Part shown: piece by piece, positions 751 through 35,618 of the stretch
Layout of the letters: each line of letters begins with the position of its first letter
Numbering within the stretch: position 1 is the first letter of the stretch
DNA from: Desulfobacteraceae bacterium
Lineage (GTDB): Bacteria > Desulfobacterota > Desulfobacteria > Desulfobacterales > JAABTS01
NCBI GenBank assembly: GCA_011389735.1
Contig: JAABTS010000050.1
Coordinates: forward strand, 1-35,618
Length of the DNA: 35,618 bases
Reading direction: 5' to 3'
The notes under the pieces: generated by a model
What the model was told of the DNA's origin: nothing
Seen by the model: only the letters and a program-made list of their open reading frames with translations
Databases searched by the model: none
Translations under genes and position numbers: made by a program

Positions 751-882
751 AAGAGAGTATCTCAAATTTATTTACAACGTCTCCTTTGATAAGGCCGTGC
801 CATGCATTCTCGGATATCATTTTTGGGCTAATTTAAAATCAAATAATTAATCTTTTTTATCAATCATAGGAAGGGGCCGGCA

Positions 883-1206: not shown

Positions 1207-1235
1207 TTGAAAAACATAATTGTGAAATTATCACC

Positions 1236-1844: not shown

Positions 1845-1852
1845 CCAATAAA

Positions 1853-1880
1853 TTCATCGGATGAAACCGATGGTTTTATT
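1853..1880 (+). terminator. Possible weak intrinsic terminator after the HNH gene (stem CATCGG/CCGATG followed by TTTTATT)
   Basis: 6-bp perfect stem with a 6-nt loop, directly followed by a T-rich run. The stem is short, so confidence is low. Confidence 0.3.
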
Positions 1881-1928
1881 ATTATCTGATGATTTCTATC
1901 GTTATTTTTTAGAAGGAGGCGACAATCA

Positions 1929-2048
1929 ATGAGCAAAAAAATGCTTAAAATGCGGATATCCGGGGCGGGTTTTTGTTATAAAGAACATAAATCAGTTATC
2001 ATCTTTATAACTGTGTGTACATTAATCTTTTTCCAAATCAGGTTTTAA
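1929..2048 (+). CDS. Possible small hydrophobic peptide (39 aa, MSKKMLKMRISGAGFCYKEHKSVIIFITVCTLIFFQIRF), not in the supplied ORF track
   Basis: Strong SD (GAAGGAGG) 9 nt upstream of the ATG at 1929. The C-terminal ~20 residues form a plausible TM helix. The 3' end overlaps the convergent zinc-ribbon gene. Confidence 0.2.
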   Translation: MSKKMLKMRISGAGFCYKEHKSVIIFITVCTLIFFQIRF

Positions 2049-3074
2049 CTCAATTGCTTTATCAATGATCATTTCTTCATCTATATAATCATCCATTTCA
2101 TCAGCATCATGTGACTTTTCAATATCGGCTACTAAAGCGTTATATGCTTTTCGAAATAATGCTGGAGACATCTTTTTTATATTTCGATCTTCCCTCAAAT
2201 CCTCTGATATACATTCGCTATACAAATCAAACAATTCTAACTCATTCGATTTTTCAACCTTTTTTTGTTTCTCATATTCAGAAATTGTTTCTTCCGCTTG
2301 CCCTGCTGTCAATCCTTTGGGTATTTGAATATTGAAGAATCTATAAAAATCTTTTTGTCCTTTTAAAGCGGGGCGATTATTTAGCTTTTTAACATTTTTT
2401 TCATCGGACAATAAATCTTGCGCCTTATATTTTGCCGTTGTACTATTTAACCCCTTCAATGATACTTTAAAAAACTTGAGGATATCCTCAAAGCGTTCAA
2501 TTTCATCGCAATTATGTAAGCCTATGAGATCTGACAACTGACCCTTTGTCATTTTCTGATCTGCTTTAATTCCAAGTTTTCTAGCATATTTAATCTGGCG
2601 GTCGGTAGAATTATCAAAAAACCAATGTGGGGCAATATCCGGCGTCTCATCAATCTCTTTCCATTTCTTTTTTAGATATTCTAAATCCTCATTGTATTTT
2701 TTTTCTTCTGATGTCTCCTCATCAAGATGCCTTCCTTTAGCCGATTTGGCTTGTAACGATTTTGGCTGGGTTTGGATTCCATTCTTCCCTTTAAATTCTT
2801 CTATGTTTTTTTCATCTTCACTGCTTTTTGATTTTATTTTCTGCTTAACCAAAATAACGCTTATTATTAAAAATATTATTCCAGCAAAAGGACTCACTTT
2901 TAATGAAATAGTAATGACACAAAATAACATAATAATAAAACCAACTATTATAATAATAATTGGTATTTCTTTTTCTTCTGGGAAATTATTGCCACACTTT
3001 GGGCACTTGTTTTTCGTTTTATAAACAACATCAGAGTTAGAAATTTCATTCTTACATTTTTTACAAATTGGCAT
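2022..3074 (-). CDS. Zinc-ribbon membrane protein (N-terminal CxxC-x17-CxxC, two TM helices, Lys/Glu-rich cytoplasmic domain with an internally duplicated motif); function unknown
   Basis: The ORF extends to 3155, but MPICKKCKNE...CPKCGNNF starts at the ATG at 3074, which is the more plausible start. The hydrophobic stretch IPIIIIIVGFIIMLFCVITISLKVSPFAGIIFLIISVILV is TM-like. The internal repeat RQIKYARKLGIKADQKMTKGQLSDLIG / FFNIQIPKGLTAGQAEETISEY is present. AT-rich like the rest of the island. Confidence 0.6.
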   Translation of the reverse strand: MPICKKCKNEISNSDVVYKTKNKCPKCGNNFPEEKEIPIIIIIVGFIIMLFCVITISLKVSPFAGIIFLIISVILVKQKIKSKSSEDEKNIEEFKGKNGIQTQPKSLQAKSAKGRHLDEETSEEKKYNEDLEYLKKKWKEIDETPDIAPHWFFDNSTDRQIKYARKLGIKADQKMTKGQLSDLIGLHNCDEIERFEDILKFFKVSLKGLNSTTAKYKAQDLLSDEKNVKKLNNRPALKGQKDFYRFFNIQIPKGLTAGQAEETISEYEKQKKVEKSNELELFDLYSECISEDLREDRNIKKMSPALFRKAYNALVADIEKSHDADEMDDYIDEEMIIDKAIELKPDLEKD

Positions 3075-3361
3075 TTTAGTTACCATCTTTTTGAGAATAA
3101 CAGTGAACCATATAGCAAAAAAATATATTCGCTTTGGCTTTTCCAGTAAACCCAATCCAAAAGAATAAAAAAAAGATCCTTATTACATATCATGTCATAT
3201 TTCCCCTTTTTTTTATCCAATATCTTTATCAATGTCAATTGCCGATACAAGTTTTTCAGCGATCTGGGATTGATCCGTGAGTTTTTACGTACGCGAGGTG
3301 ATACCGGGAAGGGTGCGACGTCCGGAGGAATTCCGGAAACATGATACTTAATTATTGACAC

Positions 3362-6300: not shown

Positions 6301-8914
6301 TAAGATCCAGCGGCTGAACGTTCACGGAAAACCGGTAATCACCGAACCGGATAATATCGGCGCCGTCCTCGAACAATTCTTTCCGGTCTTTGAGCCGCCG
6401 GACGGTGTCTTCCCGCATCGTTTTCAGACGGGATTGAATATCGTCCGCCTTGACCGTATCGTCAAGCTCCCGAAGCTGAACGATAATGTCCCGGATTTTC
6501 TCGATCATCAGATCCGATGCGAAATACCCGTTGATTTCATTGATGTCCGTCATCCCGTCCACGCGGTTCCGGACGCCTTTCAAAATCCGCTCCGCCGCGC
6601 TCATCAACGCGTTCGCACGCTTGTTCCGGGCTTCCACAAGGGACAGCTTCCGGGTTTCAAACGCATGATACAACGCTTCCCGCTTTTCAGACAATTGGAC
6701 TATAAAATCGTCGAACTCGACAAACGCCCCCTCCAGTTCTTCAAGCTGTATCATTAATTTGGTCAGATACTCATCGCATTTATCAGGCGTGTCGCTGATA
6801 TCCAGATAGTTGATCACGCTCTGGTTCAACAGCTTGATCCGGGCGTTGAACCGCTCCACGCCCTCAACGCTTGCAAGGCTTTTACGCTTGTTTTTAAGTT
6901 CCGCCTTGACTTTGTTGATATCGGAATAGATGGCGGAAATATCGTCGATAATTCGGGTGGTTTGAGTGGAATCCTCGATCTTGAGGTTACTGACGATATC
7001 GATCAGCATTTCCAGATCCCCCGAAACAGCGCCCACGTCTTCCTGAATCCGGTCAGCGTCCGCCACACGGTCGCATTCCACGATCCGCCCCCGTGTCTCA
7101 ACGACTCGATTTACATATGGCTTCAGAGCCTCATCGCTCAATAAAAATTCCACACAGGCCGAAGAAACCCGGCCGGTCGCATCCTTGACTCCAGCCTCCA
7201 GAGACTCCACAGCATCCAAATCCACATACCGGAGATCCTTCAAAGATATGATTTCACCCCGAATATTCCGCAATTGGGAAAGCCGTTCCACAAAATGATC
7301 GATACGGTTCATCACGCCGAGATCGACCGACTTGAGAATTTCGCCGGCCCGATCGGAAACCTCCCGAACCCGGCTCTCAGTACCCTTTTTCAGCCGGACG
7401 ACCTTTTCGAACGCATCAATCGCCCCGCTCGCCGTACGCTTGATTTCGAGAACCGTTTCCTTGATATTGAACGCTTCGGGCCGTTCGATCCAGAAATAGG
7501 CGTCGGCGATATCCGTGGATTTTTTGACTATGTCATGGTACAGCCCCGAATAGGTGTCCTCCTTGTTCAAAAGCCTCAACAATTCGTTGCATTCGGCCAT
7601 GCATCGCACAATGTCCTTGTTGCCGACTTTGTAAAGAAAGGCGTCTTTTTTATCCGCCCCAGGAAGCAGGCCCGTAATAAAAGGCGTTTGCATGATCTGA
7701 ACCACATGATGCTTCGTCGGTTCGGGATCGCTGCGCAAAAGCAGCATTTCCCCGCTGTCAAAAATGGAAAAACCGCTGCACACGATCGGCGTATCCACTT
7801 TTTGATCGATAATATTATAGTGCAGCAAAATGTGATCCCCGGTCTCCCGGTTATAAAATACATAAAGAAAATCTTCGCCGTTGGACGACGCCGCCCGGCG
7901 CTCGAAACGCATATCGGCCAGGCCGCTTTCGAATTGCTTGAGTTCGCCGGTCTGAAGATAATATCCGTTGGAAAACATGAGCCCCTGGCTGTCCGGGAGA
8001 AGCACGCATGCGTTTTCGATCTCATCGACACGGCTCACCGCCTGAGTTTTTTCATTGAAGATATAATATCGAAACGCATTTTCCTGGTAAGGCCGGATTC
8101 GCACAAGAATCATGTTACCGACAAAAGCGTAGTAAATTTCAGCGTCATCGAGAGTCTGATCCTTGTTCTCGACGGCTTCCGAATACACCCCGTATCCGTC
8201 GGCCGTGTTGTCCTCCACCTTGAAAGTGATATCCCCGCCGACAGCCTCCACAAACAACCGGTCGTCCAGGGAAATATGAGGATGCACGCCTGCCCGGTGC
8301 TGGTCCCTGGTCGTCCGGGTCCAGGCGAATTCGTGCTGAGCCGGAAACTTGAATTCATGGTCGCTCCGGTTGTCCAGATACACCGGCCCCGATTCCTGCA
8401 TGGCCCATTTGAACGTTTTGATATCAACGACGGATTTGCCGATATTGAAAACCATGAAAAGATGGGGCCCGATGATCGAAAATTTCGCGAACCGCGTTTC
8501 CTTGTAATATTTATACAAGTCCTTGAAATCGGCCTCGAACCTTCCCGAATCCAGAATATCGACCGGCTGTTCGCGAAACGAGCCGTCACGGTATTCGTAA
8601 ACCGCAAACACATCGGATATCCCCGTCTCGGATTTCAGCCCCATACGCACGTTATACCCGAAAATAAACAGATTCCGCCCGATTGAAACCATGTCACGGG
8701 GGATGCAATTGTTTTGGGTTGAAATCCGTTCGGTCGACAAAATTGTGGTTTCGATAGAGCCGAAGATATCCTTGCGGGACTGATTGAGTTCACCCAGGCT
8801 GGATTGCAGGGCGTTCCCCTGAGTCAGCAGCCGGTTGCGGATAATCTCGTAAGCGCCGCCGTCCAGAGCAATCCTTGATTCATCCTGTGCTTTCACATCT
8901 TCATTGCCGGCCAT
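3362..8914 (-). CDS. Giant multidomain protein (~1850 aa): N-terminal ~1250 aa of unknown fold, MoxR/AAA_5-like AAA+ ATPase core, ~270-aa linker, C-terminal 3-4 ankyrin repeats
   Basis: Walker A LLISPPGYGKTTL; Walker B/MoxR-like MLYLDDIQHLNPEFLQKF; sensor-1 VVVVMAGNPYTE; arginine-finger region KIPDMLANRA (nt ~4600-5060). Ankyrin repeats PLMAAAVHNNPNVVDFLL / SALMIAASKGRVDVVKVLLARGANVN / TALMWAEKKGNDGIARLL (nt ~3362-3775). A coiled-coil-rich segment spans aa ~560-900. The track ORF begins with TTG at 8920. The ATG at 8914 has a GGGAG SD 6 nt upstream and is preferred. Confidence 0.85.
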   Translation of the reverse strand: MAGNEDVKAQDESRIALDGGAYEIIRNRLLTQGNALQSSLGELNQSRKDIFGSIETTILSTERISTQNNCIPRDMVSIGRNLFIFGYNVRMGLKSETGISDVFAVYEYRDGSFREQPVDILDSGRFEADFKDLYKYYKETRFAKFSIIGPHLFMVFNIGKSVVDIKTFKWAMQESGPVYLDNRSDHEFKFPAQHEFAWTRTTRDQHRAGVHPHISLDDRLFVEAVGGDITFKVEDNTADGYGVYSEAVENKDQTLDDAEIYYAFVGNMILVRIRPYQENAFRYYIFNEKTQAVSRVDEIENACVLLPDSQGLMFSNGYYLQTGELKQFESGLADMRFERRAASSNGEDFLYVFYNRETGDHILLHYNIIDQKVDTPIVCSGFSIFDSGEMLLLRSDPEPTKHHVVQIMQTPFITGLLPGADKKDAFLYKVGNKDIVRCMAECNELLRLLNKEDTYSGLYHDIVKKSTDIADAYFWIERPEAFNIKETVLEIKRTASGAIDAFEKVVRLKKGTESRVREVSDRAGEILKSVDLGVMNRIDHFVERLSQLRNIRGEIISLKDLRYVDLDAVESLEAGVKDATGRVSSACVEFLLSDEALKPYVNRVVETRGRIVECDRVADADRIQEDVGAVSGDLEMLIDIVSNLKIEDSTQTTRIIDDISAIYSDINKVKAELKNKRKSLASVEGVERFNARIKLLNQSVINYLDISDTPDKCDEYLTKLMIQLEELEGAFVEFDDFIVQLSEKREALYHAFETRKLSLVEARNKRANALMSAAERILKGVRNRVDGMTDINEINGYFASDLMIEKIRDIIVQLRELDDTVKADDIQSRLKTMREDTVRRLKDRKELFEDGADIIRFGDYRFSVNVQPLDLTIVQRDGEQVFHLAGTDFFETIDHPEFIKTRSVWGMEVPSENEDVYRGEFLALRMLKDAESRGDSAISEFAEASEEELQGMVRRFMGPRYAEGYSKGVHDHDCAKIVQALADIHVKIGLLRFHPRVRALAGLFMLLGFSDEEQAEKSLMLEKLRSFGMISGIFPSRGEQARYIAEISDRIYEFVRRTGLFSVESAPDAATYLFLELSSGAERFSVSKEAFELSEGFAVSLKSGLYLQKFKTAREKLAGSPLSVFEMIRDWMEAYILSLGREELLDYLDEASVLVFDPPEVVQKDMADVDMTRESDGMLGDHRVIQNGRYHLNYYRFMDKTARFESEILPLYNRYQDLKRKLIDEMREGLRLNEFKPRILTSFVRNRLINKVYLPLIGANLAKQIGVAGEGKRTDLMGMLLLISPPGYGKTTLMEYLANRLGVIFMKINGPAIGHTVTSLDPKEASNAAAREEIQKLNLCLEMGDNVMLYLDDIQHLNPEFLQKFISLCDAQRKIEGVYKGKSRTYDLRGKKVVVVMAGNPYTESGEKFKIPDMLANRADTYNLGDIIGDTREDFEMSYLENALTSNPVLGKMSSRSQADVYSIIRIAKTGDREEVEFEGNYSGEEIDEMVSVMKKMITVQEVILKVNKEYIRSAGMADEFRTEPPFKLQGSYRNMNRLTEKLVPIMNDSELKTLLLSHYESEAQTLTTGAEANMLKFLELTGWMTDTQRERWEEIKKTFQKNQMLRGMDESNPVTHVVAQLSAFQDGLESIRGALSAGVDQFMRFYQARGSETREDDREERSSGPVQTMVSFSEETLSRIDRLAKEIKSISVVPVQAAGVDPHYAERIKNSAPIAPSTLRTIHKSRKNDFYLAIKNGNIEQLGELLRSGRDVNARTPEKATPLMAAAVHNNPNVVDFLLDQGAMIDAVDRDGYSALMIAASKGRVDVVKVLLARGANVNLLDNNGMTALMWAEKKGNDGIARLLRGKPN

Positions 8915-8960
8915 ACCCAACTCCCTGACGGTTCAACGTCCGCATGCTTTCGAAAACAAG

Positions 8961-11096
8961 TTATTCTTTTTTTCCTCGATCTTCCAGGTTCAAGGAGCCC
9001 AGGATTTTGTTACCCAGCCCGGATCGTTCAGCCATGGAAATGAGACCGTATAGATCGCTCCGTGCGTTGTCGCAATCCGTCTGCGATACAAGGCGGCTCA
9101 ATGCGGCCGATACGGTGAGATCTTTGAACTGTTCGGCGCTGACGCCGAACTGGCTGAAAAACTGGGTAAGCTGGGATTTGAAAAATTCCGGATCGCCGTT
9201 GAAAAAGGTGTCCTTGACGTTTTTGAGTACGTCGCTGCCTTCGATAAGACGATCGATCGCCTTGCCGCCCGATACGGCGTTGACCACGCGATCGAAAAAC
9301 ATGGACTCCCCTCCGACGATATCCACCCTGGCGGATTTAAGGGCCGCGCCGAGGGTTTCCGCCTGATAGGAGGCGATTTCCTTGCGAATATTGATTTCGG
9401 CGATACGGATGTCTTTTTCCATGGCCAGACGGATTTTATATTCTTCGTGTTCACGGCCCACGGCGTCGAGCAATTTCATGGCGTTGGCCTTGCTTTCGAT
9501 GCCTTTAGCCTCGGCCTGAAACAACATGGACTGGGTTTTGGCTTCGGATGCGCCTTTTAATTCAATGCCTTTGGCGTCGGCTTCATTTTTCAGCTCGATC
9601 ACTTTAGCTTCGGCCGCGCCTTTTTTCTCGATCAACAGCGTCTGAGCCTCGTTAATTTTCACCTGAGCCAATCCGGCTGCGGCCTTTTCGGCGATTTCGC
9701 CTTCGGCCAGCAGCTTTTTGGCGTTGGCGTCTTTTTCCGCGGCAGCCTGCCTGGCCTCCGCCTCGATCACTACCTGCTCGGCTTTCATTCCGGCGGCGCC
9801 TTTCGACGCTTCAGCCGCTTTAAGCACACGATTTCTTTCTTCTTCCGCCTTGAACTCGGCGACTTTCCGGGACGCTTCAGCCGCTTTGACATCGATCAGC
9901 AAAGATTCTTCAGCCTCTTTTTCAGCCTTGGTGATAGCCACTTTTTTCTCGCGATCCGCCTGAGCGTAGGCTTCGGTGTCCTTGATTCGCTCCTGTTCCT
10001 CGATCACAGTTTTTTCAACCATTACCCGCTCACGTATTACATTCTGGATCGCTTTTTTTTCGACTTCAAGGGCTTTTTCCTTTTCAATCTGAGCTAACGA
10101 CACCAGCCGTTCCCGTTCGGTCGCCTCGATCATCCGATCTTTTTCCACCCGCTCGTTCTCGATGGCCTCGGTGCGTTCTTTGTTCTTGCGGGCCACGACC
10201 ACCTGCCGCAGTTTGTTTTCTTCCGCCACGGCAAGCTGTTCTTCGGTGGCGATCCGGGCGGATTCGGCCTTATATTTCTCTTCTTCCTGAATTTTCCGGG
10301 TTTCAGCTTCTTCCCGGGCTTTGACGGATTCGACCTCGCGCTTTTTCTGATTTTCGGTCTGGGACAACTGCCGGTTCAATTCCAGAACGGTTTCCCGGGC
10401 TTCGACATCCTGTTTGGTGATCGTCTTTTCTTTTTCCCGGTCGATCTGGTTGGCGAGTATTTTTTGAGTCGCCGTAAGCTCCGTGATCTTTTTAATCCCC
10501 TGGGAATCCAGAATATTATCAGCCTTTAGATCTTCCAGTTGTGTTTGTTCCAGAAAATCGATTGCTGCGTCATCCAGGATAAACCCATTCAAATCCGTGC
10601 CGATGATCTTCAGCATTTCCTCTTTGAATTTTTCCCGGGAATTATACAAATCCACGAAATCGAATTGTTTTCCGACGGTTTTCAGAGCTTCGGAAAATTT
10701 GGCTTCGAACAGATCCTGAAGCGCCGCCTGATGAGACGCTCGTTCGCAACCAATAGACTGGGCCACCTTGAGTACGTCTTCGCCCGTTTTGTTCACCCGG
10801 ACGAAAAAGGCCACCTTGATGTCGGCCCGAAGATTGTCCTGGCAAATCAGGCCCTCGATTCCCTGCCGGTCGATCGTGACCTTTTTAACGGAAATATCGA
10901 TAAATTCCATGCGATGAAGAATCGGAATCACCATGATTCCTGAAAACGTGACACTGGTTCCGCCGACGCCGTTCCGAACCAACGCATGTCCCTGTTCCAC
11001 TTTTTTGTAAAATCTCGCCAGCATGGTAAGAAGACCGACAAGGATGATAAATCCGCCGATAAGGACAACCCCGATCGATAAGCCCAGAATTTCCAT
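8961..11096 (-). CDS. Flotillin-like SPFH/band-7 protein (YqiK family)
   Basis: 711 aa; N-terminal TM helix, SPFH core (...VTIDRQGIEGLICQDNLRADIKVAFFVRV...), a very long Glu/Ala/Lys-rich coiled coil, and a C-terminal flotillin tail. Strong SD CAGGAGGGG. Sits 13 nt downstream of an NfeD-like gene. Confidence 0.9.
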   Translation of the reverse strand: MEILGLSIGVVLIGGFIILVGLLTMLARFYKKVEQGHALVRNGVGGTSVTFSGIMVIPILHRMEFIDISVKKVTIDRQGIEGLICQDNLRADIKVAFFVRVNKTGEDVLKVAQSIGCERASHQAALQDLFEAKFSEALKTVGKQFDFVDLYNSREKFKEEMLKIIGTDLNGFILDDAAIDFLEQTQLEDLKADNILDSQGIKKITELTATQKILANQIDREKEKTITKQDVEARETVLELNRQLSQTENQKKREVESVKAREEAETRKIQEEEKYKAESARIATEEQLAVAEENKLRQVVVARKNKERTEAIENERVEKDRMIEATERERLVSLAQIEKEKALEVEKKAIQNVIRERVMVEKTVIEEQERIKDTEAYAQADREKKVAITKAEKEAEESLLIDVKAAEASRKVAEFKAEEERNRVLKAAEASKGAAGMKAEQVVIEAEARQAAAEKDANAKKLLAEGEIAEKAAAGLAQVKINEAQTLLIEKKGAAEAKVIELKNEADAKGIELKGASEAKTQSMLFQAEAKGIESKANAMKLLDAVGREHEEYKIRLAMEKDIRIAEINIRKEIASYQAETLGAALKSARVDIVGGESMFFDRVVNAVSGGKAIDRLIEGSDVLKNVKDTFFNGDPEFFKSQLTQFFSQFGVSAEQFKDLTVSAALSRLVSQTDCDNARSDLYGLISMAERSGLGNKILGSLNLEDRGKKE

Positions 11097-11109
11097 GATA
11101 CCCCTCCTG

Positions 11110-11727
11110 TTATTCTTCGTTATACTTTTCTACAAAATAGACGCCGTTTTCCCTGTCCTCGTCATAAACCAGAGCTTTGTCGCCCTTTATAAGAACGCCG
11201 CCGCCCGTTGTCCGCGCATGGATCGTAATCGGGGCCCCTCCGGTCAAAATTTCAACCTGCCCGAATGATGAATTGACCTGGCTGGTGACCACCGTCCCTA
11301 CTTGATACATGACCGAGCTTTCCTTTCGCTGATCGTTTTGTTTGAACATTTTTGCCAGAGGTTTCATGATAAAAGCGGTGATAAAAAACGAAACAATGAA
11401 ATTGGGTATCAGAAACGCCAGGCCGAGGAGAATTGAATGGGAAGGATTTAAAAAATAATTCAGAATCAATGAAAACCACCAGCAGCTCATGACCATTAAA
11501 GTGACTACGAACATGATCGGAACTTCGCCGAGACTCAAAAATTCCGTAATCGATGATAAAAAGCCTCCTGAACCGTCCACATCGATATCCGGAGTAATAT
11601 CCGCGTCTAAAAATTCGAGATCTATTCCTCCTAGAATGACCGCAAGCCAGTACAACATTGTAAGGCCGAAGATGACTGTAAAAGGAAGGTTGAGAGGCAT
11701 TACCGTCTGTTGCAGGAATTCAAACAT
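11110..11727 (-). CDS. NfeD/YqiJ-like membrane protein (multi-TM N-terminus, C-terminal OB-fold beta domain); usual partner of SPFH proteins
   Basis: 205 aa; 3-4 hydrophobic helices then GTVVTSQVNSSFGQVEILTGGAPITIHARTTGGGVLIKGDKALVYDEDRENGVYFVEK, typical of the NfeD short-form OB domain. Confidence 0.8.
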   Translation of the reverse strand: MFEFLQQTVMPLNLPFTVIFGLTMLYWLAVILGGIDLEFLDADITPDIDVDGSGGFLSSITEFLSLGEVPIMFVVTLMVMSCWWFSLILNYFLNPSHSILLGLAFLIPNFIVSFFITAFIMKPLAKMFKQNDQRKESSVMYQVGTVVTSQVNSSFGQVEILTGGAPITIHARTTGGGVLIKGDKALVYDEDRENGVYFVEKYNEE

Positions 11728-25777: not shown

Positions 25778-25845
25778 CTTACTCCTCCTTGTGTTAATAG
25801 GCTATGGCTTATATAGTCTTCCACAAATTAAATTGCCGTAAACAT

Positions 25846-25970
25846 TTAAGGCATCCTTCATAAACCCAGGAAAGTGGTTGACACTTTCCAAGTCGGGATC
25901 CCGATCCCGATCCCGATAGCGATCCCGATTTCAAAGTGTAAACCGACAGATGAAGGATGCCACATTTAAT
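25846..25970. repeat. MITE/REP-like composite element. Terminal 12-nt inverted repeats GGCATCCTTCAT/ATGAAGGATGCC enclose an 8-bp perfect hairpin (GGAAAGTG-gttga-CACTTTCC) and a (CCGATC)3-4 / GGGATC hexamer tract (25893-25933).
   Basis: All repeats are read directly. The hexamer tract is the reverse-orientation relative of the tracts at 33332-33353 and 35577-35598. Confidence 0.7.
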
Positions 25971-26266
25971 AACGAAAAGCTCATGTTACCTTACTAAAAA
26001 AAAACAATACCTGTATACTGAATCCTGATATCAGACCCATAATTTAAAGGCAAGCGATTGATGAAAGGAAATATAATTTCCGCATATATCAAAAACAATC
26101 ATCCTGATGAAAAAAACAGGTTGAAATTCGATCCGAGATTGAATATAGATACAGGTTTGCGGTTAACCCATTTGAATTGAAAGAAATAGTTAGCCGCTCT
26201 GAAAAAATGCGGTTATTTATAAGCTGTAATTAATTCAGCGATATTTATCTTTCAGGAGAAATCATT

Positions 26267-29015: not shown

Positions 29016-31349
29016 ATGGATAATAATGAAGAATATTTTGTGATATCGGGAAAAATCAACGGAAAACGGATCGAATCGAGAATTCTCGAAGAAAAATTGC
29101 AAAAGGCCGTTGAATCCGGACATCGCCGGATAAAAGTCAATGCTTTCGGCCAGCATGGGATCGGCGGACGGCTTTGGAGAGCGGGCGGCGAACCCGTCGA
29201 GATTGTCGTGGAGGGCCATTCGGGGCAAAGGGTGGGATCCATGGGATTTCCCAACACCGTCATCGAATTGACGGGCCCGGCGTCCGATGACGTGGGATGG
29301 TTGAACTCAGGCGCGGAAATCGTAATTCACGGCCACGCGTCCAACGGCGTCGCCAACGCAATGGCCCAGGGGAAAATCTATGTTTCCGGCAATATCGGAT
29401 CTCGCGGGATGACCATGACCAAACGGAATCCACGGTTCGATCCTCCGGAACTATGGGTGCTGGGATCGGTCGGAGACTATTTCGGCGAATTCATGGCGGG
29501 CGGAGTCGCTGTTATCTGCGGCGTCGCCCCTCAGGATCGGGACGATATTCTGGGATACAGGCCGTTTGTGGGCATGGTCGGCGGTTCGGTTTTTTTTCGG
29601 GGGCCTTACAAAGGATTCAGCCGGGCGGATTCGAAAATCGTGGATATTACGGATTCCGACTGGAACTGGTTAACGTCGAATCTGGAGATATTCACCCGGA
29701 AGATCGGGAAACCCGAACTTTTGGAAACCTTGTCCGATCGTTCCGAATGGCGCCTGATCAAGGCGCTGACCCCTTTGGAGCGCGGCGGCAAAACAAACCG
29801 GGCCATGTCCGATTTTCGAAAAGCGGTGTGGGAAAAAGATCTGGGAACAGGTGGGTTGATCGGCGATCTGGTGGATTTCGACCGCGGCTTGATTCCTGTA
29901 ATCACAACCGGGGATTTAAGACGATACAAACCGGTCTGGGAGAACCGGAAATATGATCCGCCCTGCGCCGCGACCTGCCCGACTGGAATTCCGGTTCACC
30001 GCCGATGGCGTTTGATCCGTGAAGGGAAAGTGGATGAGGCCGTAGCGCTGGCCTTGGAGTACACGCCTTTTCCGGCGTCGGTTTGCGGTTATCTCTGTCC
30101 GAACTTGTGCATGCAGTCCTGCACCCGTGAATCGGCGATGTTGCCGGCCGTGGACGTCACGCTGCTTGGCAAAGAAAGCATCAAGGCCGGAATTCCGGAA
30201 ATTCCCAAACCCCTTGGAGGGCGCGTAGCCGTGATCGGCGGCGGACCGGCGGGCGTTTCCACGGCGTGGCAGCTTCGGATCATGGGACACGAGGCTGTTA
30301 TCTATGATATGGCTGAAACCCTGGGAGGCAAACTGGCGTCCGCTATTCCGGAAGACCGGATTCCGCCCGAGGTTTTGAGCGCGGAACTTGAACGGGTGAA
30401 AGCGGTCATCCCCAATGTCGGCCTTGAAAAACGGCTTTCCCGCGAGGATGTGGAAAAACTGAAATCCGAATTCGATTACGTGGTTCTGGCCACGGGCGCT
30501 CAAAAACCGAGAGTCCTCGACTTTCCGGGCAAGGAACGGATGATCACGAGCCTTGACTTTTTGAGACGGGCCAAGAAAGGGAATATCAAGCCCGGCGAAC
30601 GTATGGTCATTATAGGAGCCGGGAATGTAGGTTGCGATGTCGCGGCGGCCGGAAAAAGGCTTGGAGCCGAAAGCCTTTTGCTGATCGATGTTCAGGAACC
30701 GGCGTCGTTCGGCAAGGAGCGAAAACACGCTGAAGACGCCGGCGCTGAATTCCGGTGGCCGTGTTTCACCAGAGAGATTACGGAACAGGGCGTGGTTTTG
30801 TCCACCGGAGAGTTAATCCCGGCCGACATGGTGGTCATTGCAATCGGAGACGCCCCGGATCTCGATTTTCTGCCGGACAGCGTCGCCACGGACGCCGGAT
30901 ATGTCCTTGTTGACGAAAACTTCAGGACATCCGACGAAAAAGTGTTCGCAGTGGGAGATATGGTCAGGCCGGGGCTGTTGACCGATTCCATCGGCTCGGG
31001 CCGCGGAGCGGCGCAGACCGTTCACAAACTTTTGGCGGGCGGAGCCGAATGTAACGGGGAACGCGACATGATAGATCGAAACCGGGTCAAAACGGAATAT
31101 TTTGATCCGCGGCTCGCCGCATTCGACGATATCCAAGACGCGGCGTCGCAATGCGCATCCTGCGGAGATTGCCGGGATTGTGGAATCTGCATTGAAATTT
31201 GCCCCCGTTCAGCCATATCCAGGACGCCGTTGTCCGGAGAACCTTACGAATATGTGGTGCATGAAGACCGGTGTATCGGATGCGGATTTTGTGTCGGAGC
31301 TTGTCCGTGCGGCGTTTGGAATCTTATTGAAAATTTCGGGTTGATGTAA
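29016..31349 (+). CDS. Fusion of the glutamate synthase GXGXG (GltB C-terminal) domain with a GltD-like FAD/NAD(P)H oxidoreductase and a C-terminal 2x[4Fe-4S] ferredoxin
   Basis: N-terminal beta-helix GXGXG repeats (VVEGHSGQRVGSMG, IVIHGHASNGVANAMAQGKIYVSGNIGSRGM). GltD-like Cys cluster (CAATCPTG...CGYLCPNLCMQSCTR). Rossmann motifs VAVIGGGPAGVS and VIIGAGNVGCDVA. C-terminal CASCGDCRDCGICIEICP / CIGCGFCVGACPCG. Confidence 0.85.
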   Translation: MDNNEEYFVISGKINGKRIESRILEEKLQKAVESGHRRIKVNAFGQHGIGGRLWRAGGEPVEIVVEGHSGQRVGSMGFPNTVIELTGPASDDVGWLNSGAEIVIHGHASNGVANAMAQGKIYVSGNIGSRGMTMTKRNPRFDPPELWVLGSVGDYFGEFMAGGVAVICGVAPQDRDDILGYRPFVGMVGGSVFFRGPYKGFSRADSKIVDITDSDWNWLTSNLEIFTRKIGKPELLETLSDRSEWRLIKALTPLERGGKTNRAMSDFRKAVWEKDLGTGGLIGDLVDFDRGLIPVITTGDLRRYKPVWENRKYDPPCAATCPTGIPVHRRWRLIREGKVDEAVALALEYTPFPASVCGYLCPNLCMQSCTRESAMLPAVDVTLLGKESIKAGIPEIPKPLGGRVAVIGGGPAGVSTAWQLRIMGHEAVIYDMAETLGGKLASAIPEDRIPPEVLSAELERVKAVIPNVGLEKRLSREDVEKLKSEFDYVVLATGAQKPRVLDFPGKERMITSLDFLRRAKKGNIKPGERMVIIGAGNVGCDVAAAGKRLGAESLLLIDVQEPASFGKERKHAEDAGAEFRWPCFTREITEQGVVLSTGELIPADMVVIAIGDAPDLDFLPDSVATDAGYVLVDENFRTSDEKVFAVGDMVRPGLLTDSIGSGRGAAQTVHKLLAGGAECNGERDMIDRNRVKTEYFDPRLAAFDDIQDAASQCASCGDCRDCGICIEICPRSAISRTPLSGEPYEYVVHEDRCIGCGFCVGACPCGVWNLIENFGLM

Positions 31350-31391
31350 AATCAATATTGTACTATTAATATAAAATACGTTACATTTCAG

Positions 31392-31531
31392 GAATGTTGA
31401 ATTTTGAATTTTGAATGTTGAATGTTGAATGTTGAATTTTGAATGTTGAATTTTGAATTTTGAATGTTAGATGTTGAATGTTGAATGTTAAATGTTAAAT
31501 GTTAAATGTTAAATGTTGAATGTTAGATGTG
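31392..31531 (+). repeat. Tandem heptanucleotide array, ~20 units of GAATGTT (variants GAATTTT, AAATGTT, AGATGTT)
   Basis: Read directly; the units are contiguous with no spacer. Lies directly upstream of the XPB-like helicase gene. Confidence 0.95.
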
Positions 31532-31543
31532 AGTCCCCCATTT

Positions 31544-31596
31544 AGCATTCAACATACAACATTCAACATAAATAATTTAGCATTCAACATAACATT
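31544..31596 (+). repeat. Inverted copies of the heptamer (ATTCAACATA x3, i.e. reverse complement of ATGTTGAAT) between the array and the helicase start codon
   Basis: AGCATTCAACATACAACATTCAACATAAATAATTTAGCATTCAACATAACATT can base-pair with the upstream (GAATGTT)n array. Confidence 0.8.
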
Positions 31597-31603
31597 TGGA
31601 AAG

Positions 31604-33316
31604 ATGGCGACGATAAACCCTTCAAATCCACTGATCGTTCAAGGAGATTATACGGTTCTGGCGGAAGTCGACAGCCCCGGCTTTACAGCCGCCAGGAATC
31701 GTTTGGTGCGATTCGCGGAATTGATTAAATCCCCTGAATACATTCATACGTATCGAATCACGCCGCTTTCCATATGGAACGCATGCGCATCCGGGATATC
31801 GAAACATGAAATCGGAGACGCGCTCGAAGAATATTCCAAATATCCTGTTCCGGAACATGTTCTCGCCCAAATCGGCGATTATATTTCACGTTACGGAAGG
31901 CTGAAGATTTTAAAAGAGGAAGGCCGTTTGATTCTGGACGCCGAGGACCGGCGGCTCGCCAGGGAAATCGAAAACGACAAGACGCTTCGAAAATTGATCG
32001 ACGGCAATATATCGCCGACACGGTTTATCGTTCCGGCGGTGAACCGGGGTAGAATAAAACAGGCGTTGATCAAGGCCGGATATCCCGCTGAAGATATGGC
32101 CGGATATACGGAAGGCAATCCGCTCCTCTTTACCCTGCGTTCCCCTTCCCTTTCAGGCGCCCCTTTTGAACTAAGATCTTATCAGCGGCAGGCGGCCGAT
32201 TCATTTCACGCCGGCGGTTCGCCACAGGGGGGATCGGGCGTCATTGTTCTTCCATGCGGCGCCGGGAAAACCATTGTGGGCATATCCTGCATGGAAAAGT
32301 TACAAACATCGACCTTGATTTTAACGACCGGAACCACCGCGGTCAAGCAATGGAAAAGCGAACTAATTGATAAAACCACGCTGACCGAAGACCAAATCGG
32401 GGAATACACGGGCGAAAAAAAAGAAATCCGGGGCGCCACGCTTTCCACCTATCAAATCATGACCTATCGCAGCAAAAAAGATCCGGATTTCAAACATCTG
32501 TCCCTTTTTGAGGAACAAAATTTCGGGCTGATCATTTATGACGAAGTGCATATGCTGCCGGCGCCCATATTTCAAATCACGGCGGGATTACAGGCCAGAC
32601 GGCGGTTAGGCCTGACCGCCACGCTCGTGCGGGAAGACAACCGGGAAGATGATGTTTTCGCTCTGATCGGCCCCAAAAAAATGGATTCCCCGTGGAAAGA
32701 ACTGGAGTCTCAGGGATGGATCGCATGCGCCGCATGTTGTGAAATTCGGATTCCGCTGCCCGAAGATCTCCAGGTGCTTTACGCCGTGGCCGAACGGCGA
32801 AAAAAATTCCGGATCGCATCGGAGAATCCCCGAAAGATAGACATTGTGCGCCGTCTCATATCCAATCACGAACATCATCAGATTCTTGTCATCGGCCTGT
32901 ATTTGGAGCAGTTGCGGACGATCTCCGAAGAAATGAACATCCCCGTCATTACGGGAAAAATGTCTCAAACAAACCGCGACGACCTTTACCGGAGATTCAG
33001 AGCCGGCGAAATCAGATGCATGGCGGTTTCAAAGGTCGCCAATTTTGCGATAGACCTTCCGGACGCTTCCGTTGCTATCCAGATTTCAGGAACATTCGGA
33101 TCAAGGCAGGAGGAGGCCCAACGCCTGGGGCGCATACTGAGACCCAAACCGGGAGAAAACCAGGCCCATTTTTATACGCTGGTGACAAAAGATACGATTG
33201 AACAGGACTTTGCGCTTAACCGGCAACTATTTCTGTGCGAACAGGGATACGCCTATGAAATCAGGGATGAAGGGATAGGTTCTAACTTCGGCCATCAGTT
33301 TAGTGATTGGGCTTGA
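31604..33316 (+). CDS. XPB/Rad25 (ERCC3)-type SF2 DNA helicase
   Basis: Motif I VLPCGAGKTIVGI; Ia TTGTTAVKQWKSEL; II IIYDEVHMLPA; III and RED motif LGLTATLVREDNREDDVFALIGPKKMD; VI EEAQRLGRILR. The N-terminal ~200 aa are consistent with a damage-recognition domain. The start at 31604 (GGAAAG SD) is preferred over the track start at 31520, which lies inside the repeat array. Confidence 0.9.
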   Translation: MATINPSNPLIVQGDYTVLAEVDSPGFTAARNRLVRFAELIKSPEYIHTYRITPLSIWNACASGISKHEIGDALEEYSKYPVPEHVLAQIGDYISRYGRLKILKEEGRLILDAEDRRLAREIENDKTLRKLIDGNISPTRFIVPAVNRGRIKQALIKAGYPAEDMAGYTEGNPLLFTLRSPSLSGAPFELRSYQRQAADSFHAGGSPQGGSGVIVLPCGAGKTIVGISCMEKLQTSTLILTTGTTAVKQWKSELIDKTTLTEDQIGEYTGEKKEIRGATLSTYQIMTYRSKKDPDFKHLSLFEEQNFGLIIYDEVHMLPAPIFQITAGLQARRRLGLTATLVREDNREDDVFALIGPKKMDSPWKELESQGWIACAACCEIRIPLPEDLQVLYAVAERRKKFRIASENPRKIDIVRRLISNHEHHQILVIGLYLEQLRTISEEMNIPVITGKMSQTNRDDLYRRFRAGEIRCMAVSKVANFAIDLPDASVAIQISGTFGSRQEEAQRLGRILRPKPGENQAHFYTLVTKDTIEQDFALNRQLFLCEQGYAYEIRDEGIGSNFGHQFSDWA

Positions 33317-33321
33317 AGTTT

Positions 33322-33390
33322 TTGAATCCAAATCGGGATCGGGATCGGGATCGTTATCGAAGGATTCAATTTCGATCCCGATACCGATAA
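33322..33390 (+). repeat. GGGATC hexamer element copy B: TTGAATCC-(AAATCGGGATCGGGATCGGGATCG)-TTATCGAA-GGATTCAA then TTTCGATCCCGATACCGATAA
   Basis: 8-bp inverted repeat TTGAATCC/GGATTCAA around the hexamer tract (33332-33353). Shares the CGATACCGATA tail with copy C. Confidence 0.8.
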
Positions 33391-33459
33391 ATGAAAATGG
33401 CCGAAGATAGAACCGGGCCGGGGATGAATCACGCCGTGTGACAAATTAACAGGTGGCTT

Positions 33460-35469
33460 ATGTACAATTTACCTTCAGATTGGATTCAGTTAATCGATTT
33501 TCTTGAAAAATGGAACGGTCTGAGCGCCCGAGGCAGACGTTTGTTTTTGAATTTCAAAAAAGAATGCAGCAAATCCAAAACATCGAAACCGGACCACCGG
33601 TTCGCCGAGCTGGTCGACGCCGGGTTTTTAATTCAAAATTCAAAAAAAACACCTGAAATCCGGGAAGATCTGAAACCTTACGCCGACACCCTGTCCGTCA
33701 TGGAAAAGATTCCCTTGTTTGACGGGAAAGCCGATAAAAATCTTCTTTCAGTATATCTGGACGCCCATTTCCGTTATTCGCATAAACGGGCCCTCGAAAC
33801 CGGGCTAAACTGCAATTACGGCGGGTTCGGGACGGATATACTGGTTCGTGAACTGGCGAATCCCGGAAGGCTTGACGATTTTCTGGAAACCCGCTCGTAT
33901 TCGGACTGGGAACGCCGTTATTCAAAATGTGAGATCGAATTTTTTGACACCGAAGAAATATTCGGCATGACTCAGACACTGGTGAGGCATTGTCTTGAAA
34001 AACAAAATCCACTGCATGTCGGCCGGATATGCAAGCTTTTTCCGGACAAGGAAACAGTCAAAATATCAAAGGCGGTATCCGCCGGCGTTTACTACGCCTT
34101 GCTGTTTTTGGCGTTGAGAACTTCCGATCTGGAATCCCGGGCCGGTGTCTGGCCGTCGATTTTTCAGAGAGCCAGACGGTCCAAACCCGTAAAACCCCGG
34201 CAGGCGACCCCCGAAACCGTATTCAGCCGGTCCGTTTTGATGGAGGACATGACCCATGCGGCGGTTCAAGCGTGCCTTGAACCGTTGCGGATCAAACTGG
34301 ACGGAAACGGTATCTACCAGCGGGACTTGAAACAACTGGAACCGGGGCTCGTTCAGGTTCCCCCCTGGGTCAACGACCTTTTTGATTGCAGCGCTTCCGG
34401 CCGCCTGGAAAAAGCGGTTCAATTTCTGCGACTTTTCAATCTTATCGAATACAAAGGCTCTCCCGGCAAAAACAGGAGGATTGAAACAAGCGACGACGGC
34501 CGGCGATGGCTCGATTTGTCCGAAACGCAGCGTGTTATATTCATTCTGGAACGGATGCGGCGTCATAATGAAAGAAATGTGGCATTCGAAGATGTCGATC
34601 ACAGTGAACGTTCCTTTGATTATTTGAATCCGTATCCGCCCATGCGAAGTATCGGACTGGATAAGAATCTTCGCCGCTGGATCGCCGATGCGTTTAAAAA
34701 TATCCCGCTGGATACGTTCTACAAGATCGATACCTTTCTTTATCATGAAAAGCTGCAAAACAATCCATTGTTAAAAATCGCCGGTCCTGACGACCTTATT
34801 CAAGTTTATGTCAAAAATTCACTTATCCCTCCGGATGAGGAAGACCTTGAAAATATCTGGGAAACCCTGATTTATCAGTTTTTAGGATCATCTCTGGCGT
34901 ATACGGGCGCCGCTTCCGTAAGCGCTCTGAAAGATGGAAGCCTGGCTTTCGCCCTGACGGACTTGAGCCGTTATTTGTTGAATCCCGAGAAAGCGCGCCG
35001 GCCGGTCGAGGACAAAACCCCTTCCGTTCTTATCCAGCCGGATTTCGAAATCATTTTTTTGTCTCCGTCGCCTGGAGCGGAACGCCGCATCGGCCGGTTC
35101 GCCGAACGAATCGGATATCATATCGGCGCCATGTTTAAAATTACGAAAGCTTCCATATTCCAGGCCGCGGGCGCCGGCGTGACCTGTGAAACCGTGCTGA
35201 ACACTCTTGACCGAATCGCCATAGGCCCGATACCCGCCAACGTTAAAGGCGAAATTATAGGATGGTTTGAACAGTTCAAATGCGTCCGTATAGAATCCGG
35301 AAATCAAATCCGCTGCGACGACCGAACCACCACCAGGCTGATTTTAACCGCTCTGGGCGACCACTTCAAACCCGTTTCCGACTGTATCCTCAGAATACGA
35401 AACACCGCCCCTAAAAAAACCATCACCCAGAAACTCATGGGTATCGGCGTTTTCGTCAAGACTGAATAA
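33460..35469 (+). CDS. Uncharacterised 669-aa protein, candidate functional partner of the XPB-like helicase
   Basis: AGGTGG SD 5 nt upstream; same strand as the helicase and 143 nt downstream of it. No catalytic motif could be recognised by eye. Bracketed by hexamer elements B and C. Confidence 0.8.
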   Translation: MYNLPSDWIQLIDFLEKWNGLSARGRRLFLNFKKECSKSKTSKPDHRFAELVDAGFLIQNSKKTPEIREDLKPYADTLSVMEKIPLFDGKADKNLLSVYLDAHFRYSHKRALETGLNCNYGGFGTDILVRELANPGRLDDFLETRSYSDWERRYSKCEIEFFDTEEIFGMTQTLVRHCLEKQNPLHVGRICKLFPDKETVKISKAVSAGVYYALLFLALRTSDLESRAGVWPSIFQRARRSKPVKPRQATPETVFSRSVLMEDMTHAAVQACLEPLRIKLDGNGIYQRDLKQLEPGLVQVPPWVNDLFDCSASGRLEKAVQFLRLFNLIEYKGSPGKNRRIETSDDGRRWLDLSETQRVIFILERMRRHNERNVAFEDVDHSERSFDYLNPYPPMRSIGLDKNLRRWIADAFKNIPLDTFYKIDTFLYHEKLQNNPLLKIAGPDDLIQVYVKNSLIPPDEEDLENIWETLIYQFLGSSLAYTGAASVSALKDGSLAFALTDLSRYLLNPEKARRPVEDKTPSVLIQPDFEIIFLSPSPGAERRIGRFAERIGYHIGAMFKITKASIFQAAGAGVTCETVLNTLDRIAIGPIPANVKGEIIGWFEQFKCVRIESGNQIRCDDRTTTRLILTALGDHFKPVSDCILRIRNTAPKKTITQKLMGIGVFVKTE

Positions 35470-35570
35470 TGGTTTCGTATCGTCTTCCGGTAATCAAATT
35501 TCAGTGCGTTATCGGCCGGAGATATACGAGTTGTATTATCCGGCATCCTTCATTTCTTGTTTACAGTTTC

Positions 35571-35618
35571 ATCAAAATCGGGATCGGGATCGGGATCGTA
35601 ATAATTCGATACCGATAC
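35571..35618 (+). repeat. GGGATC hexamer element copy C (AAAATCGGGATCGGGATCGGGATCGTAATAATTCGATACCGATAC), at the window edge
   Basis: Same orientation and near-identical core to copy B. Truncated by the window end. Confidence 0.8.

What the first reader, a model, noticed from the sequence alone, without database searches (positions are those of the whole stretch)
31392..31603. Twenty tandem heptamers (GAATGTT)n plus inverted copies directly upstream of the XPB helicase: candidate phase-variable or structured control region
A ~140-bp perfect-register 7-nt microsatellite abuts the helicase 5' region. Three inverted heptamer copies (31544-31596) follow it and could pair with the array in DNA (cruciform) or RNA (long hairpin occluding the weak GGAAAG SD). 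Heptamer tracts are prone to slipped-strand mispairing, so copy-number change would alter promoter-to-start spacing. If translation initiated inside the array (the in-frame ATG at 31520, and every unit contains an ATG) it would also shift the reading frame. Either way this is an on/off switch for a DNA-repair or defence helicase. Each unit also contains TGAAT/ATTCA half-sites that could act as iterated protein-binding sites.
Basis: partly seen in the sequence, partly recalled or inferred. Interest (0 to 1): 0.7.

Follow-up and report, generated by a model that had tools for sequence, protein, structure and literature searches.

The report
Heptamer microsatellite hairpin upstream of XPB
A real but degenerate 20-unit, 7-base microsatellite with a fold-back arm lies in the spacer before a DNA-repair helicase gene; it belongs to the already known class of bacterial intergenic heptamer repeats, and nothing here shows it to be an on/off switch.

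Summary
The repeat is real. There are 20 heptamers in strict 7-nt register at 31392-31531. Only 9 are GAATGTT, and the longest perfectly periodic stretch is 34 nt. About eight degenerate inverted units follow at 31539-31599, not three. Together they form a ~50-bp imperfect hairpin (z -5 to -8) that ends 2 nt before the GGAAAG/ATG of XPB.

The true XPB start is ATG 31604. The deposited 598-aa model starting at 31520 over-extends into the array.

A frameshift switch is excluded, because every other ATG in the array opens a 6-codon mini-ORF. No sigma-70-like promoter straddles the array. Predicted SD accessibility does not change with unit number, and the hairpin saturates at ~9 units.

The array is missing from the closest relative (XPB 85% identical, same gene order) and from 45 other XPB loci.

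Arrays of the same unit occur in at least 118 stretches from many phyla. Those loci are rich in heptamer arrays generally, and 11-19% have inverted partners. Over-representation of heptamer SSRs is in the literature.

Verdict: this is a lineage-specific, slippage-built heptamer SSR hairpin. It is probably part of the XPB leader, with at most a modest structural effect. An hmw-like rheostat remains possible (~15%) but untested. It is a new member of a known kind, of modest interest.

The parts
29016..31349 (+). Upstream gene: third gene of a split glutamate-synthase-like cluster (GXGXG, pyridine-nucleotide oxidoreductase and 4Fe-4S domains). Its stop codon opens the 254-bp, 24% GC spacer.
   Evidence: Pfam, ORF list, spacer GC 0.243
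31341..31369 (+). Candidate promoter TTGATG-17 nt-TATTAA. The 11-nt block TGTACTATTAA (31359-31369) is the only spacer sequence conserved with the closest relative L001. If this promoter is used, the whole array is transcribed as a ~225-nt XPB leader.
   Evidence: Alignment A2. The rest of the spacer is not alignable. The site fails the strict consensus scan. This part is inference.
31392..31531 (+). Forward array of 20 heptamers in strict register, consensus GAATGTT, 23% GC. Identical variant units sit in blocks (4 x AAATGTT, 2 x 2 GAATTTT).
31532..31538 (+). G+C-rich spacer AGTCCCC. It forms the apical loop of the fold-back (loop TGAGTCCCC, 31530-31538).
31539..31599 (+). Inverted arm of about eight degenerate inverted heptamers: CATTTAG CATTCAA CATACAA CATTCAA CATAAAT AATTTAG CATTCAA CATAACA. 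It contains an internal 17-nt duplication, ATTTAGCATTCAACATA. Its variant units differ from those of the forward array.
31471..31595 (+). Predicted long imperfect hairpin (~50 pairs) between the last ~8-9 forward units and the inverted arm. Any 7-nt register of the array can pair equally well.
31549..31576 (+). Alternative promoter-like site, TCAACA-16-AATAAT, inside the inverted arm. If used, the leader would be only ~20 nt and the array would be upstream DNA.
   Evidence: consensus match only
31598..31603 (+). Weak SD-like GGAAAG abutting the start codon. It lies outside the hairpin.
31604..33316 (+). XPB DNA-repair helicase, 570 aa from ATG 31604. The deposited 598-aa product starts at ATG 31520 inside the array and is an over-extension.

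Best explanation
This is a lineage-specific intergenic heptameric simple-sequence repeat with a fold-back arm. It belongs to the class of 7-nt tandem repeats known to be over-represented in bacterial intergenic DNA.

Origin (inferred). A short forward-loop-inverted heptamer palindrome sat in the spacer between the glutamate-synthase cluster and XPB. Similar palindromes are seen in other phyla. Its forward arm then grew to 20 units by replication slippage. Point mutations accumulated faster than slippage homogenised them.

Effect (inferred). The array probably lies in the XPB leader, transcribed from a promoter just after the upstream stop codon or by read-through. There, the last ~9 units pair with the inverted arm to form a ~50-bp hairpin that ends 2 nt before the SD. 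I expect a constitutive, modest influence on mRNA stability or processing, or on ribosome loading. I do not expect a binary switch. Units beyond ~9 add no further pairing, so gain or loss of units around n = 20 should have little effect.

Shown: the anatomy, the hairpin potential, the position outside the coding sequence, the absence from relatives, and the generic nature of the repeat class.
Inferred: transcription through the array, and any effect on expression.
For: - Anatomy and significance.
- Variant units cluster, p = 0.005.
- Hairpin z-scores are -5.3 for RNA and -7.7 for DNA.
- MFE plateaus from ~9 units (-66.5) to 20 units (-78.0), and SD accessibility stays flat.
- XPB starts at 31604. 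The array ATGs are dead-end 6-codon ORFs.
- The closest relative L001 has the same gene order and 85% identical XPB. Its 235-bp spacer has no repeat.
- None of 45 further XPB loci has more than 3 repeat copies upstream.
- (GAATKTT)>=4 occurs in at least 118 stretches across many phyla. Permuted-unit controls in viral contigs give 27, 25 and 31 stretches against 35 for the real unit.
- In those 118 loci, period 7 dominates: 333 arrays, against 31 for period 8 and 3 for period 6.
- 11-19% of those heptamer arrays have an inverted partner within 120 nt.
- Literature: heptamer SSR over-representation and inverted pairs (PMC4692102); heptamer repeats just upstream of start codons (PMC4679880).
- The same window carries other intergenic repeat hairpins, also absent from L001.
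Against: - There are no transcript data, so the position of the TSS relative to the array is unknown.
- At 20 units the array is longer than any of the 144 arrays parsed from other genomes (maximum 18). Such length could reflect selection.
- In the hmw system, expression scales with repeat number even though only 10 repeats pair. My 'saturation means no effect' argument is therefore not safe.
- Only one genome and one assembly were available, so polymorphism is untested.
- Promoter assignment rests on an 11-nt block conserved in two sequences.
Confidence: 0.6

Rival explanations
1. An hmw-like contingency rheostat. The array is transcribed in the XPB 5'-UTR and its hairpin is an RNase III substrate. 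Slippage-driven changes in unit number tune XPB expression in a graded way, not on/off, giving population heterogeneity in a DNA-repair function.
For: - The architecture closely parallels H. influenzae hmw1A: (ATCTTTC)n in the 5'-UTR, ~10 repeats pairing with a downstream arm, RNase III processing, and expression inversely proportional to repeat number (PMC12721329).
- The hairpin is significant.
- There is evidence of past slippage.
- A conserved promoter-like block lies upstream of the array.
Against: - The units are degenerate: 11 of 20 depart from the consensus and the longest perfect stretch is 34 nt. The hmw repeat, by contrast, is written as one uniform unit, (ATCTTTC)n.
- Predicted RBS and SD accessibility is insensitive to unit number above ~5.
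- The array is absent from all relatives examined.
- The organism is an environmental Desulfobacterota-like MAG, with no obvious fluctuating host-type selection on XPB.
- No polymorphism data exist.
Confidence: 0.15
2. An iterated protein-binding array. The heptads in direct and inverted orientation are cooperative operator or nucleation sites for a DNA-binding protein, such as a ribbon-helix-helix repressor of the omega type or a nucleoid protein that prefers AT-rich DNA. This protein represses or insulates the XPB promoter.
For: - Contiguous 7-bp units occur in both orientations.
- The spacer is 23-24% GC in a ~50% GC genome.
- From my own knowledge, not tested here: omega of pSM19035 binds 7-10 contiguous heptads in direct or inverted orientation.
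Against: - No RHH, ParA or other regulator gene appears among the larger ORFs of the window.
- The array is not conserved in relatives that keep the same genes.
- Arrays of the same unit flank unrelated genes in unrelated phyla.
- Permuted-unit controls are equally frequent.
Confidence: 0.1
3. A mobile-element remnant or an assembly artefact. Either the block was delivered by a MITE-like element, or its length is an assembly error (a collapsed or inflated repeat in a short-read MAG).
For: - The same window carries MITE-like elements with internal (ATCGGG)n arrays, terminal inverted repeats and a target-site-like duplication.
- The contig comes from a metagenome-assembled genome.
Against: - No terminal inverted repeats or flanking direct repeat bound the heptamer block.
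- It replaces the ancestral spacer rather than interrupting it.
- The irregular order of variant units gives assemblers unique anchors, and the register is never broken.
Confidence: 0.1

Closest known systems
Over-represented intergenic heptameric SSRs of bacteria (cyanobacterial STRR repeats; Xanthomonas GGGAATC and Nostoc GGGGAYT repeats, PMC4692102)
   Same: - 7-nt unit, head-to-tail, intergenic, close to gene starts and ends.
- Length and sequence vary between close relatives.
- Some occur as inverted pairs able to form stem-loops.
- In the 118 loci I fetched, period 7 dominates every other period.
   Different: - The unit is AT-rich with no G-quadruplex potential.
- 20 units is long for the class.
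- Only one such array is visible in the 35.6 kb available, so a genome-wide family is not shown for this organism.
- The organism is Desulfobacterota-like rather than cyanobacterial or xanthomonad.
H. influenzae hmw1A/hmw2A (ATCTTTC)n 5'-UTR repeat (PMC12721329)
   Same: - A heptamer array directly upstream of a gene, outside the coding sequence.
- About 9-10 repeats pair with a downstream arm to form a long hairpin close to the start codon.
   Different: - The hmw repeat is written as one uniform unit and is shown experimentally to change in number. Here the units are degenerate and variation is untested.
- The hmw right arm is a G-rich tract, not inverted heptamers.
- Transcription, RNase III cleavage and dose-dependence are shown for hmw and unknown here.
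TAACTGA direct repeats of marine Beggiatoaceae, Cyanobacteria and Bacteroidetes (PMC4679880)
   Same: - Heptamer direct repeats lie in short spacers immediately upstream of start codons with poor or absent SD.
- They are scattered across unrelated phyla.
- No consistent downstream gene function is seen.
   Different: - Those sets mostly have 2-6 copies, at ~170 loci per genome.
- They are almost never inverted (one indirect repeat).
- Here there is a single 20-unit array with an inverted arm.
Omega (RHH) heptad operators / parS of plasmid pSM19035 (from my own knowledge)
   Same: Contiguous 7-bp units in direct and inverted orientation upstream of a gene.
   Different: - The consensus is different (WATCACW).
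- Those arrays have 7-10 heptads.
- They are always found with the cognate omega and ParA-type genes on a plasmid. None is present here, and the context is chromosomal housekeeping genes.

Membership tests
Bacterial intergenic heptameric long SSR (STRR-like class) | Head-to-tail repeats of a 7-nt unit, at least ~4 copies, in register | tested here: met
   20 units, no indel; TRF gives 19 copies at 90% matches
Bacterial intergenic heptameric long SSR (STRR-like class) | Located outside coding sequence, in an intergenic spacer | tested here: met
   Lies between stop codon 31349 and the XPB start 31604. The start is fixed by homologue lengths, the NCBIfam profile and the L001 alignment.
Bacterial intergenic heptameric long SSR (STRR-like class) | Not conserved between close relatives (rapid turnover) | tested here: met
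   Absent from L001 (XPB 85% identical, same gene order) and from 45 other XPB loci
Bacterial intergenic heptameric long SSR (STRR-like class) | Many arrays dispersed through the same genome | tested here: inconclusive
   Only 35.6 kb is available, with one substantial heptamer array. The other arrays in the window are hexamers. The rest of the genome could not be fetched.
SSR contingency locus (phase or rheostat variation, hmw type) | Long tract of identical units (a hypermutable substrate) | tested here: not met
   Only 9 of 20 units match the consensus; longest perfectly periodic stretch is 34 nt
SSR contingency locus (phase or rheostat variation, hmw type) | Tract lies in the reading frame, between the -35 and -10 hexamers, or in the transcribed leader | tested here: inconclusive
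   It is not in the reading frame and not between promoter hexamers. Leader status is only inferred from a conserved promoter-like block.
SSR contingency locus (phase or rheostat variation, hmw type) | Unit number varies within populations or between strains | not testable with these tools
   No reads were available. No second contig of the species covers the locus.
SSR contingency locus (phase or rheostat variation, hmw type) | Repeats pair with a downstream arm in a long leader hairpin | tested here: met
   52-nt arms, 81% complementary; z -5.3 (RNA) and -7.7 (DNA)
SSR contingency locus (phase or rheostat variation, hmw type) | RNase III processing and repeat-number-dependent expression | not testable with these tools
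   Needs experiments. In silico, SD accessibility is flat with unit number.
Omega-type RHH heptad operator / parS | Cognate RHH and ParA-type genes adjacent; heptad consensus WATCACW | tested here: not met
   Pfam scans of the larger ORFs show housekeeping genes only. The unit is GAATGTT. Small ORFs were not scanned.
MITE | Terminal inverted repeats plus a target-site duplication bounding an insertion relative to an empty site | tested here: not met
   The block replaces the L001 spacer and has no bounding TIR or TSD. By contrast, the hexamer element at 33272-33420 has both.
Intrinsic terminator | G+C-rich stem followed by a T run | tested here: not met
   No terminator-like site in 31200-31700. 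The stem is AT-rich and is followed by TTTGGAAAG.
Known RNA family (Rfam) | Match at or above a family's gathering score | tested here: not met
   No match at gathering threshold. Only sub-threshold hits to plant miRNA-precursor hairpins, on both strands.

The most novel reading that the evidence does not exclude
The array is a working hmw-type device in a free-living Desulfobacterota-like bacterium. It would be a transcribed heptamer repeat whose sliding-register hairpin is processed by RNase III and whose unit number, changed by slippage, tunes the level of the XPB repair helicase. That would make DNA-repair capacity itself a heritable but reversible, population-variable trait.
Probability: 0.1. 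Interest if true: 0.65.

Novelty: new member of a known kind. Interest (0 to 1): 0.3.

Why it matters
As found, it matters in three modest ways.
- It corrects a gene model. The deposited XPB product starts inside a microsatellite.
- It adds a large, palindromic example from a Desulfobacterota-like genome to the poorly understood class of bacterial heptamer repeats.
- The fetched data show how strongly period 7 dominates in repeat-bearing genomes of many phyla (333 arrays, against 3 for period 6). About one array in seven (47 of 326) has an inverted partner. This pattern has been known since 2007 and is still unexplained mechanistically.

If the minority reading were true, it would extend SSR-plus-RNA-hairpin gene tuning, so far shown in a host-adapted pathogen, to environmental bacteria and to a DNA-repair gene.

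Tried and rejected
1. Exact-protein look-ups of the window's XPB (570 aa, 598 aa and P0001) and of the upstream 777-aa gene, to find other contigs of the same strain. None is on record. The same species appears only as a 1.5-kb Logan contig carrying rplU.
2. A metagenome scan for the first 26 nt of the XPB coding sequence, to find strains with other array lengths. It gave 0 hits.
3. XPB-related metagenome loci are all only 49-65% identical and none has an upstream array. The three relatives at ~68% identity have the partner gene upstream of XPB with overlapping stop and start, so they could not test the promoter block.
4. The idea that GAATGTT is a special cross-phylum motif was rejected. Permuted-unit controls are about as frequent in viral contigs. 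A literature search for the sequence found nothing relevant.
5. Residual homology between the window spacer and the L001 spacer beyond the 11-nt block was tested by local alignment. The score was no better than for shuffles.
6. The intrinsic terminator, Rfam family, MITE and replication/partition-site readings were rejected.
7. A coding role was rejected. The + strand has stops in all frames every 21 nt. No ORF of at least 40 aa crosses the array on either strand, apart from the over-extended XPB ORF that begins at 31520.

Full report
**Observation.** The sequence at 31392-31531 is a tandem array of 20 heptamers with no indel.
- TRF reports 19 copies at 90% matches.
- A two-unit pattern with up to 2 mismatches hits 21 times in the window, against 0.39 expected.
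- It is not a perfect microsatellite. There are 9 GAATGTT, 5 GAATTTT, 4 AAATGTT, 1 AGATGTT and 1 AGATGTG. The longest perfectly 7-periodic stretch is 34 nt.
- Identical variant units sit next to each other more often than chance allows (5 adjacent identical variant pairs, permutation p = 0.005). This is what local duplication by slippage would leave behind.
- The array is 23% GC and lies in a 254-bp spacer of 24% GC, within a ~50% GC window.

**The inverted part.** After a 7-nt G+C-rich spacer (AGTCCCC) come about eight degenerate inverted units in 7-nt register, at 31539-31599. They are 73% identical to the consensus.
- The arm is 52 nt long and 81% complementary to any register of the array.
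- Its variant units (TTATGTT, GTATGTT, GAATGCT) are not those of the forward array, so the two arms have diverged independently.
- The predicted hairpin (31471-31595, ~50 pairs) is far more stable than shuffles. RNA of 31350-31640 gives -73.9 kcal/mol, z -5.3. DNA of 31462-31603 gives -29.7 kcal/mol, z -7.7.
- The hairpin ends 2 nt upstream of GGAAAG (31598-31603), so the SD-like element is not inside it.

**The gene.** The downstream ORF is XPB. It scores 842.8 bits against the NCBIfam equivalog NF045503 (cutoff 610), and Pfam finds the Helicase_C_3, ResIII and ERCC3_RAD25_C domains.
- The start is ATG 31604. The profile begins at residue 9 of the 570-aa form, homologues are 555-563 aa, and the ATG of the closest relative aligns exactly.
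- The deposited 598-aa product (P0001) starts at ATG 31520 inside the array and is an over-extension.
- Every other ATG in the array opens a 6-codon mini-ORF, apart from two near its 3' end that stop after 10 codons and 1 codon. Gain or loss of units therefore cannot shift the XPB frame.

**Promoter and leader.** No + strand sigma-70-like hexamer pair brackets the array.
- The only + strand match in the spacer (TCAACA-16-AATAAT, 31549-31576) lies inside the inverted arm.
- Immediately after the upstream stop codon, the 11-nt block TGTACTATTAA (31359-31369) is the only spacer sequence shared with the closest relative. The rest aligns no better than shuffles.
- With the TTGATG that overlaps the end of the upstream gene, it forms TTGATG-17-TATTAA. 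I take this as weak evidence for a promoter upstream of the array, which would put the array in a ~225-nt leader. This is inference.

**Does unit number matter in silico?** I folded the leader with 0 to 20 units.

| Units | MFE (kcal/mol) | SD P(unpaired) | -15..+5 P(unpaired) |
|---|---|---|---|
| 0 | -11.5 | 0.31 | 0.46 |
| 9 | -66.5 | 0.36 | 0.18 |
| 20 | -78.0 | 0.38 | 0.29 |

The main hairpin is complete at about 9 units, because only that many can pair with the inverted arm. SD accessibility does not depend on unit number. The -15..+5 region falls only from 0.46 to about 0.2-0.35 once 5 or more units are present.

**Comparative evidence.**
- The closest relative found is L001 (Logan contig, XPB 85% identical). 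It has the same order: glutamate-synthase-like gene, then XPB, then the 669-aa helicase-associated gene. Its 235-bp spacer has no repeat.
- Of 50 metagenomic XPB loci (49-65% identical), 45 had usable upstream sequence. Neither they nor L001 have more than 3 copies of any short repeat in the 500 nt upstream.
- In relatives at ~68% identity, XPB is translationally coupled to an upstream partner gene.
- The array is therefore not a conserved part of XPB regulation.
- No second contig of the same species covering the locus could be found. Length polymorphism remains untested.

**The repeat class.** These came from Nostocales, Bacteroidota, Verrucomicrobiota, Thermoanaerobaculia, Chloroflexota, CPR and two Desulfobacterota.
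- I parsed 144 arrays, with a median of 5 units and a maximum of 18. The window's 20 units is at the top of that range.
- Several are clean forward-loop-inverted palindromes in short spacers, some directly before an SD and ATG (L004, L064, L074, L092, L007, L031).
- The unit itself is not special. In viral contigs it gives 35 stretches, against 27, 25 and 31 for three permuted units.
- Period 7 is special. In the 873 kb fetched, arrays of at least 3.5 copies number 333 for period 7, 31 for period 8, 13 for period 9 and 3 for period 6. They involve more than 100 different units.
- 19% of GAATKTT-type arrays and 11% of other heptamer arrays have an inverted partner within 120 nt.
- This fits the literature. 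Heptameric SSRs have been known to be over-represented in bacterial genomes since 2007, including inverted pairs in Xanthomonas (PMC4692102). TAACTGA heptamer repeats sit just upstream of start codons in Beggiatoaceae, Cyanobacteria and Bacteroidetes (PMC4679880).

**Mechanism.** My best reading (0.6) is a slippage-built, lineage-specific heptamer SSR with a fold-back arm, probably within the XPB leader. Its ~50-bp hairpin abuts the ribosome-binding region and may modestly affect mRNA stability, processing or ribosome loading. It does not act as a switch.

The closest proven analogue is the H. influenzae hmw (ATCTTTC)n leader. There, 10 repeats pair with a downstream arm, RNase III cleaves the hairpin, and expression scales inversely with repeat number (PMC12721329). 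This keeps an hmw-like rheostat alive as a rival (0.15), because hmw expression depends on repeat number even though pairing saturates. Against it stand the degenerate units, the flat predicted accessibility and the lack of conservation.

A heptad operator array for an RHH-type or nucleoid protein (0.1) has no cognate gene nearby. A mobile-element origin or assembly artefact (0.1) lacks bounding repeats. No Rfam family and no terminator signature fits.

**Verdict.** The frameshift and promoter-spacing switch mechanisms do not, and SD occlusion is not predicted. The feature is a new, unusually long, palindromic member of a known kind. Interest is 0.3.

Noticed in passing
window 33264-33428: A 149-bp MITE-like insertion (33272-33420) sits in the 3' end of XPB. 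It has 18-nt terminal inverted repeats (33278-33295 and 33397-33414, 94% complementary) and an internal (ATCGGG)3.7 array paired with an inverted CGATCCCGATACCGAT. It is flanked by the 8-bp direct repeat GGGATGAA (33264-33271 and 33421-33428). Relative to L001, it replaces the last 7 codons of XPB (GWHLMKN*) with 15 new ones (EGIGSNFGHQFSDWA*). It also widens the XPB-to-partner gap from 10 nt to 143 nt.
   Followed up: partly
window 25850-25961 and 35542-35618: Two more members of the same hexamer-repeat element family. One is (GATCCC)5.5 at 25897-29, bounded by the perfect 12-bp inverted repeat GGCATCCTTCAT (25850-61 and 25950-61). The other starts with the same GGCATCCTTCAT at 35542, carries (ATCGGG)3.7 at 35577-98 and runs off the window end. 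The G-rich strand at 25897-29 has four GGG tracts, so a G-quadruplex is possible..
   Followed up: partly
loci L002-L119 (bacterial genomes): In 873 kb from 118 loci, tandem arrays of at least 3.5 copies are overwhelmingly period 7 (333, against 31 for period 8 and 3 for period 6). They use more than 100 different units. They occur in Nostocales and also in Bacteroidota, Akkermansiaceae, Thermoanaerobaculia, Chloroflexota, CPR and Chthoniobacterales. 11-19% have an inverted partner array within 120 nt. The heptamer bias is in the literature, but its cause is unexplained..
   Followed up: partly
L058 1744-1772 (Sulfomarinibacteraceae MAG): A (GAATTTT)4 array abuts, on the opposite strand, the GFTLIEL motif of a type IV pilin-like gene. 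The place where the short leader peptide and start codon should be is occupied by the repeat. Seen by eye.
   Followed up: no
window 31520-31603: The public gene model for XPB (598 aa, P0001) begins at an ATG inside the microsatellite. The 28 extra N-terminal residues are translated repeat and spacer, with no counterpart in 555-563-aa homologues..
   Followed up: yes
window 3362-11727 (- strand): A 1852-aa protein with DUF3686 ('ATPase involved in DNA repair'), DUF7902, AAA and C-terminal ankyrin repeats is followed by two ORFs (711 and 205 aa) with no Pfam match. Nearby are an AT-rich (26-40% GC) segment at 1-3200 and an HNH endonuclease gene (1236-1844). This may be a defence or repair island..
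   Followed up: no
window 25778-26266: Gene orientation switches from - to + here, and the cumulative GC skew reaches its minimum at about 25.8-26.0 kb. The 490-bp divergent spacer lies between gdh and the glutamate-synthase cluster and also holds the hexamer element. Most likely this is just a divergent promoter region. No DnaA-box analysis was done.
   Followed up: no
window 33460-35469 vs L289/L290 2196-4004: The helicase-associated partner of XPB (PF13625 domain) lies downstream of XPB in the window and in L001. In relatives at ~68% identity it lies upstream, with overlapping stop and start. So the gene order of the XPB pair has been inverted in this lineage..
   Followed up: no
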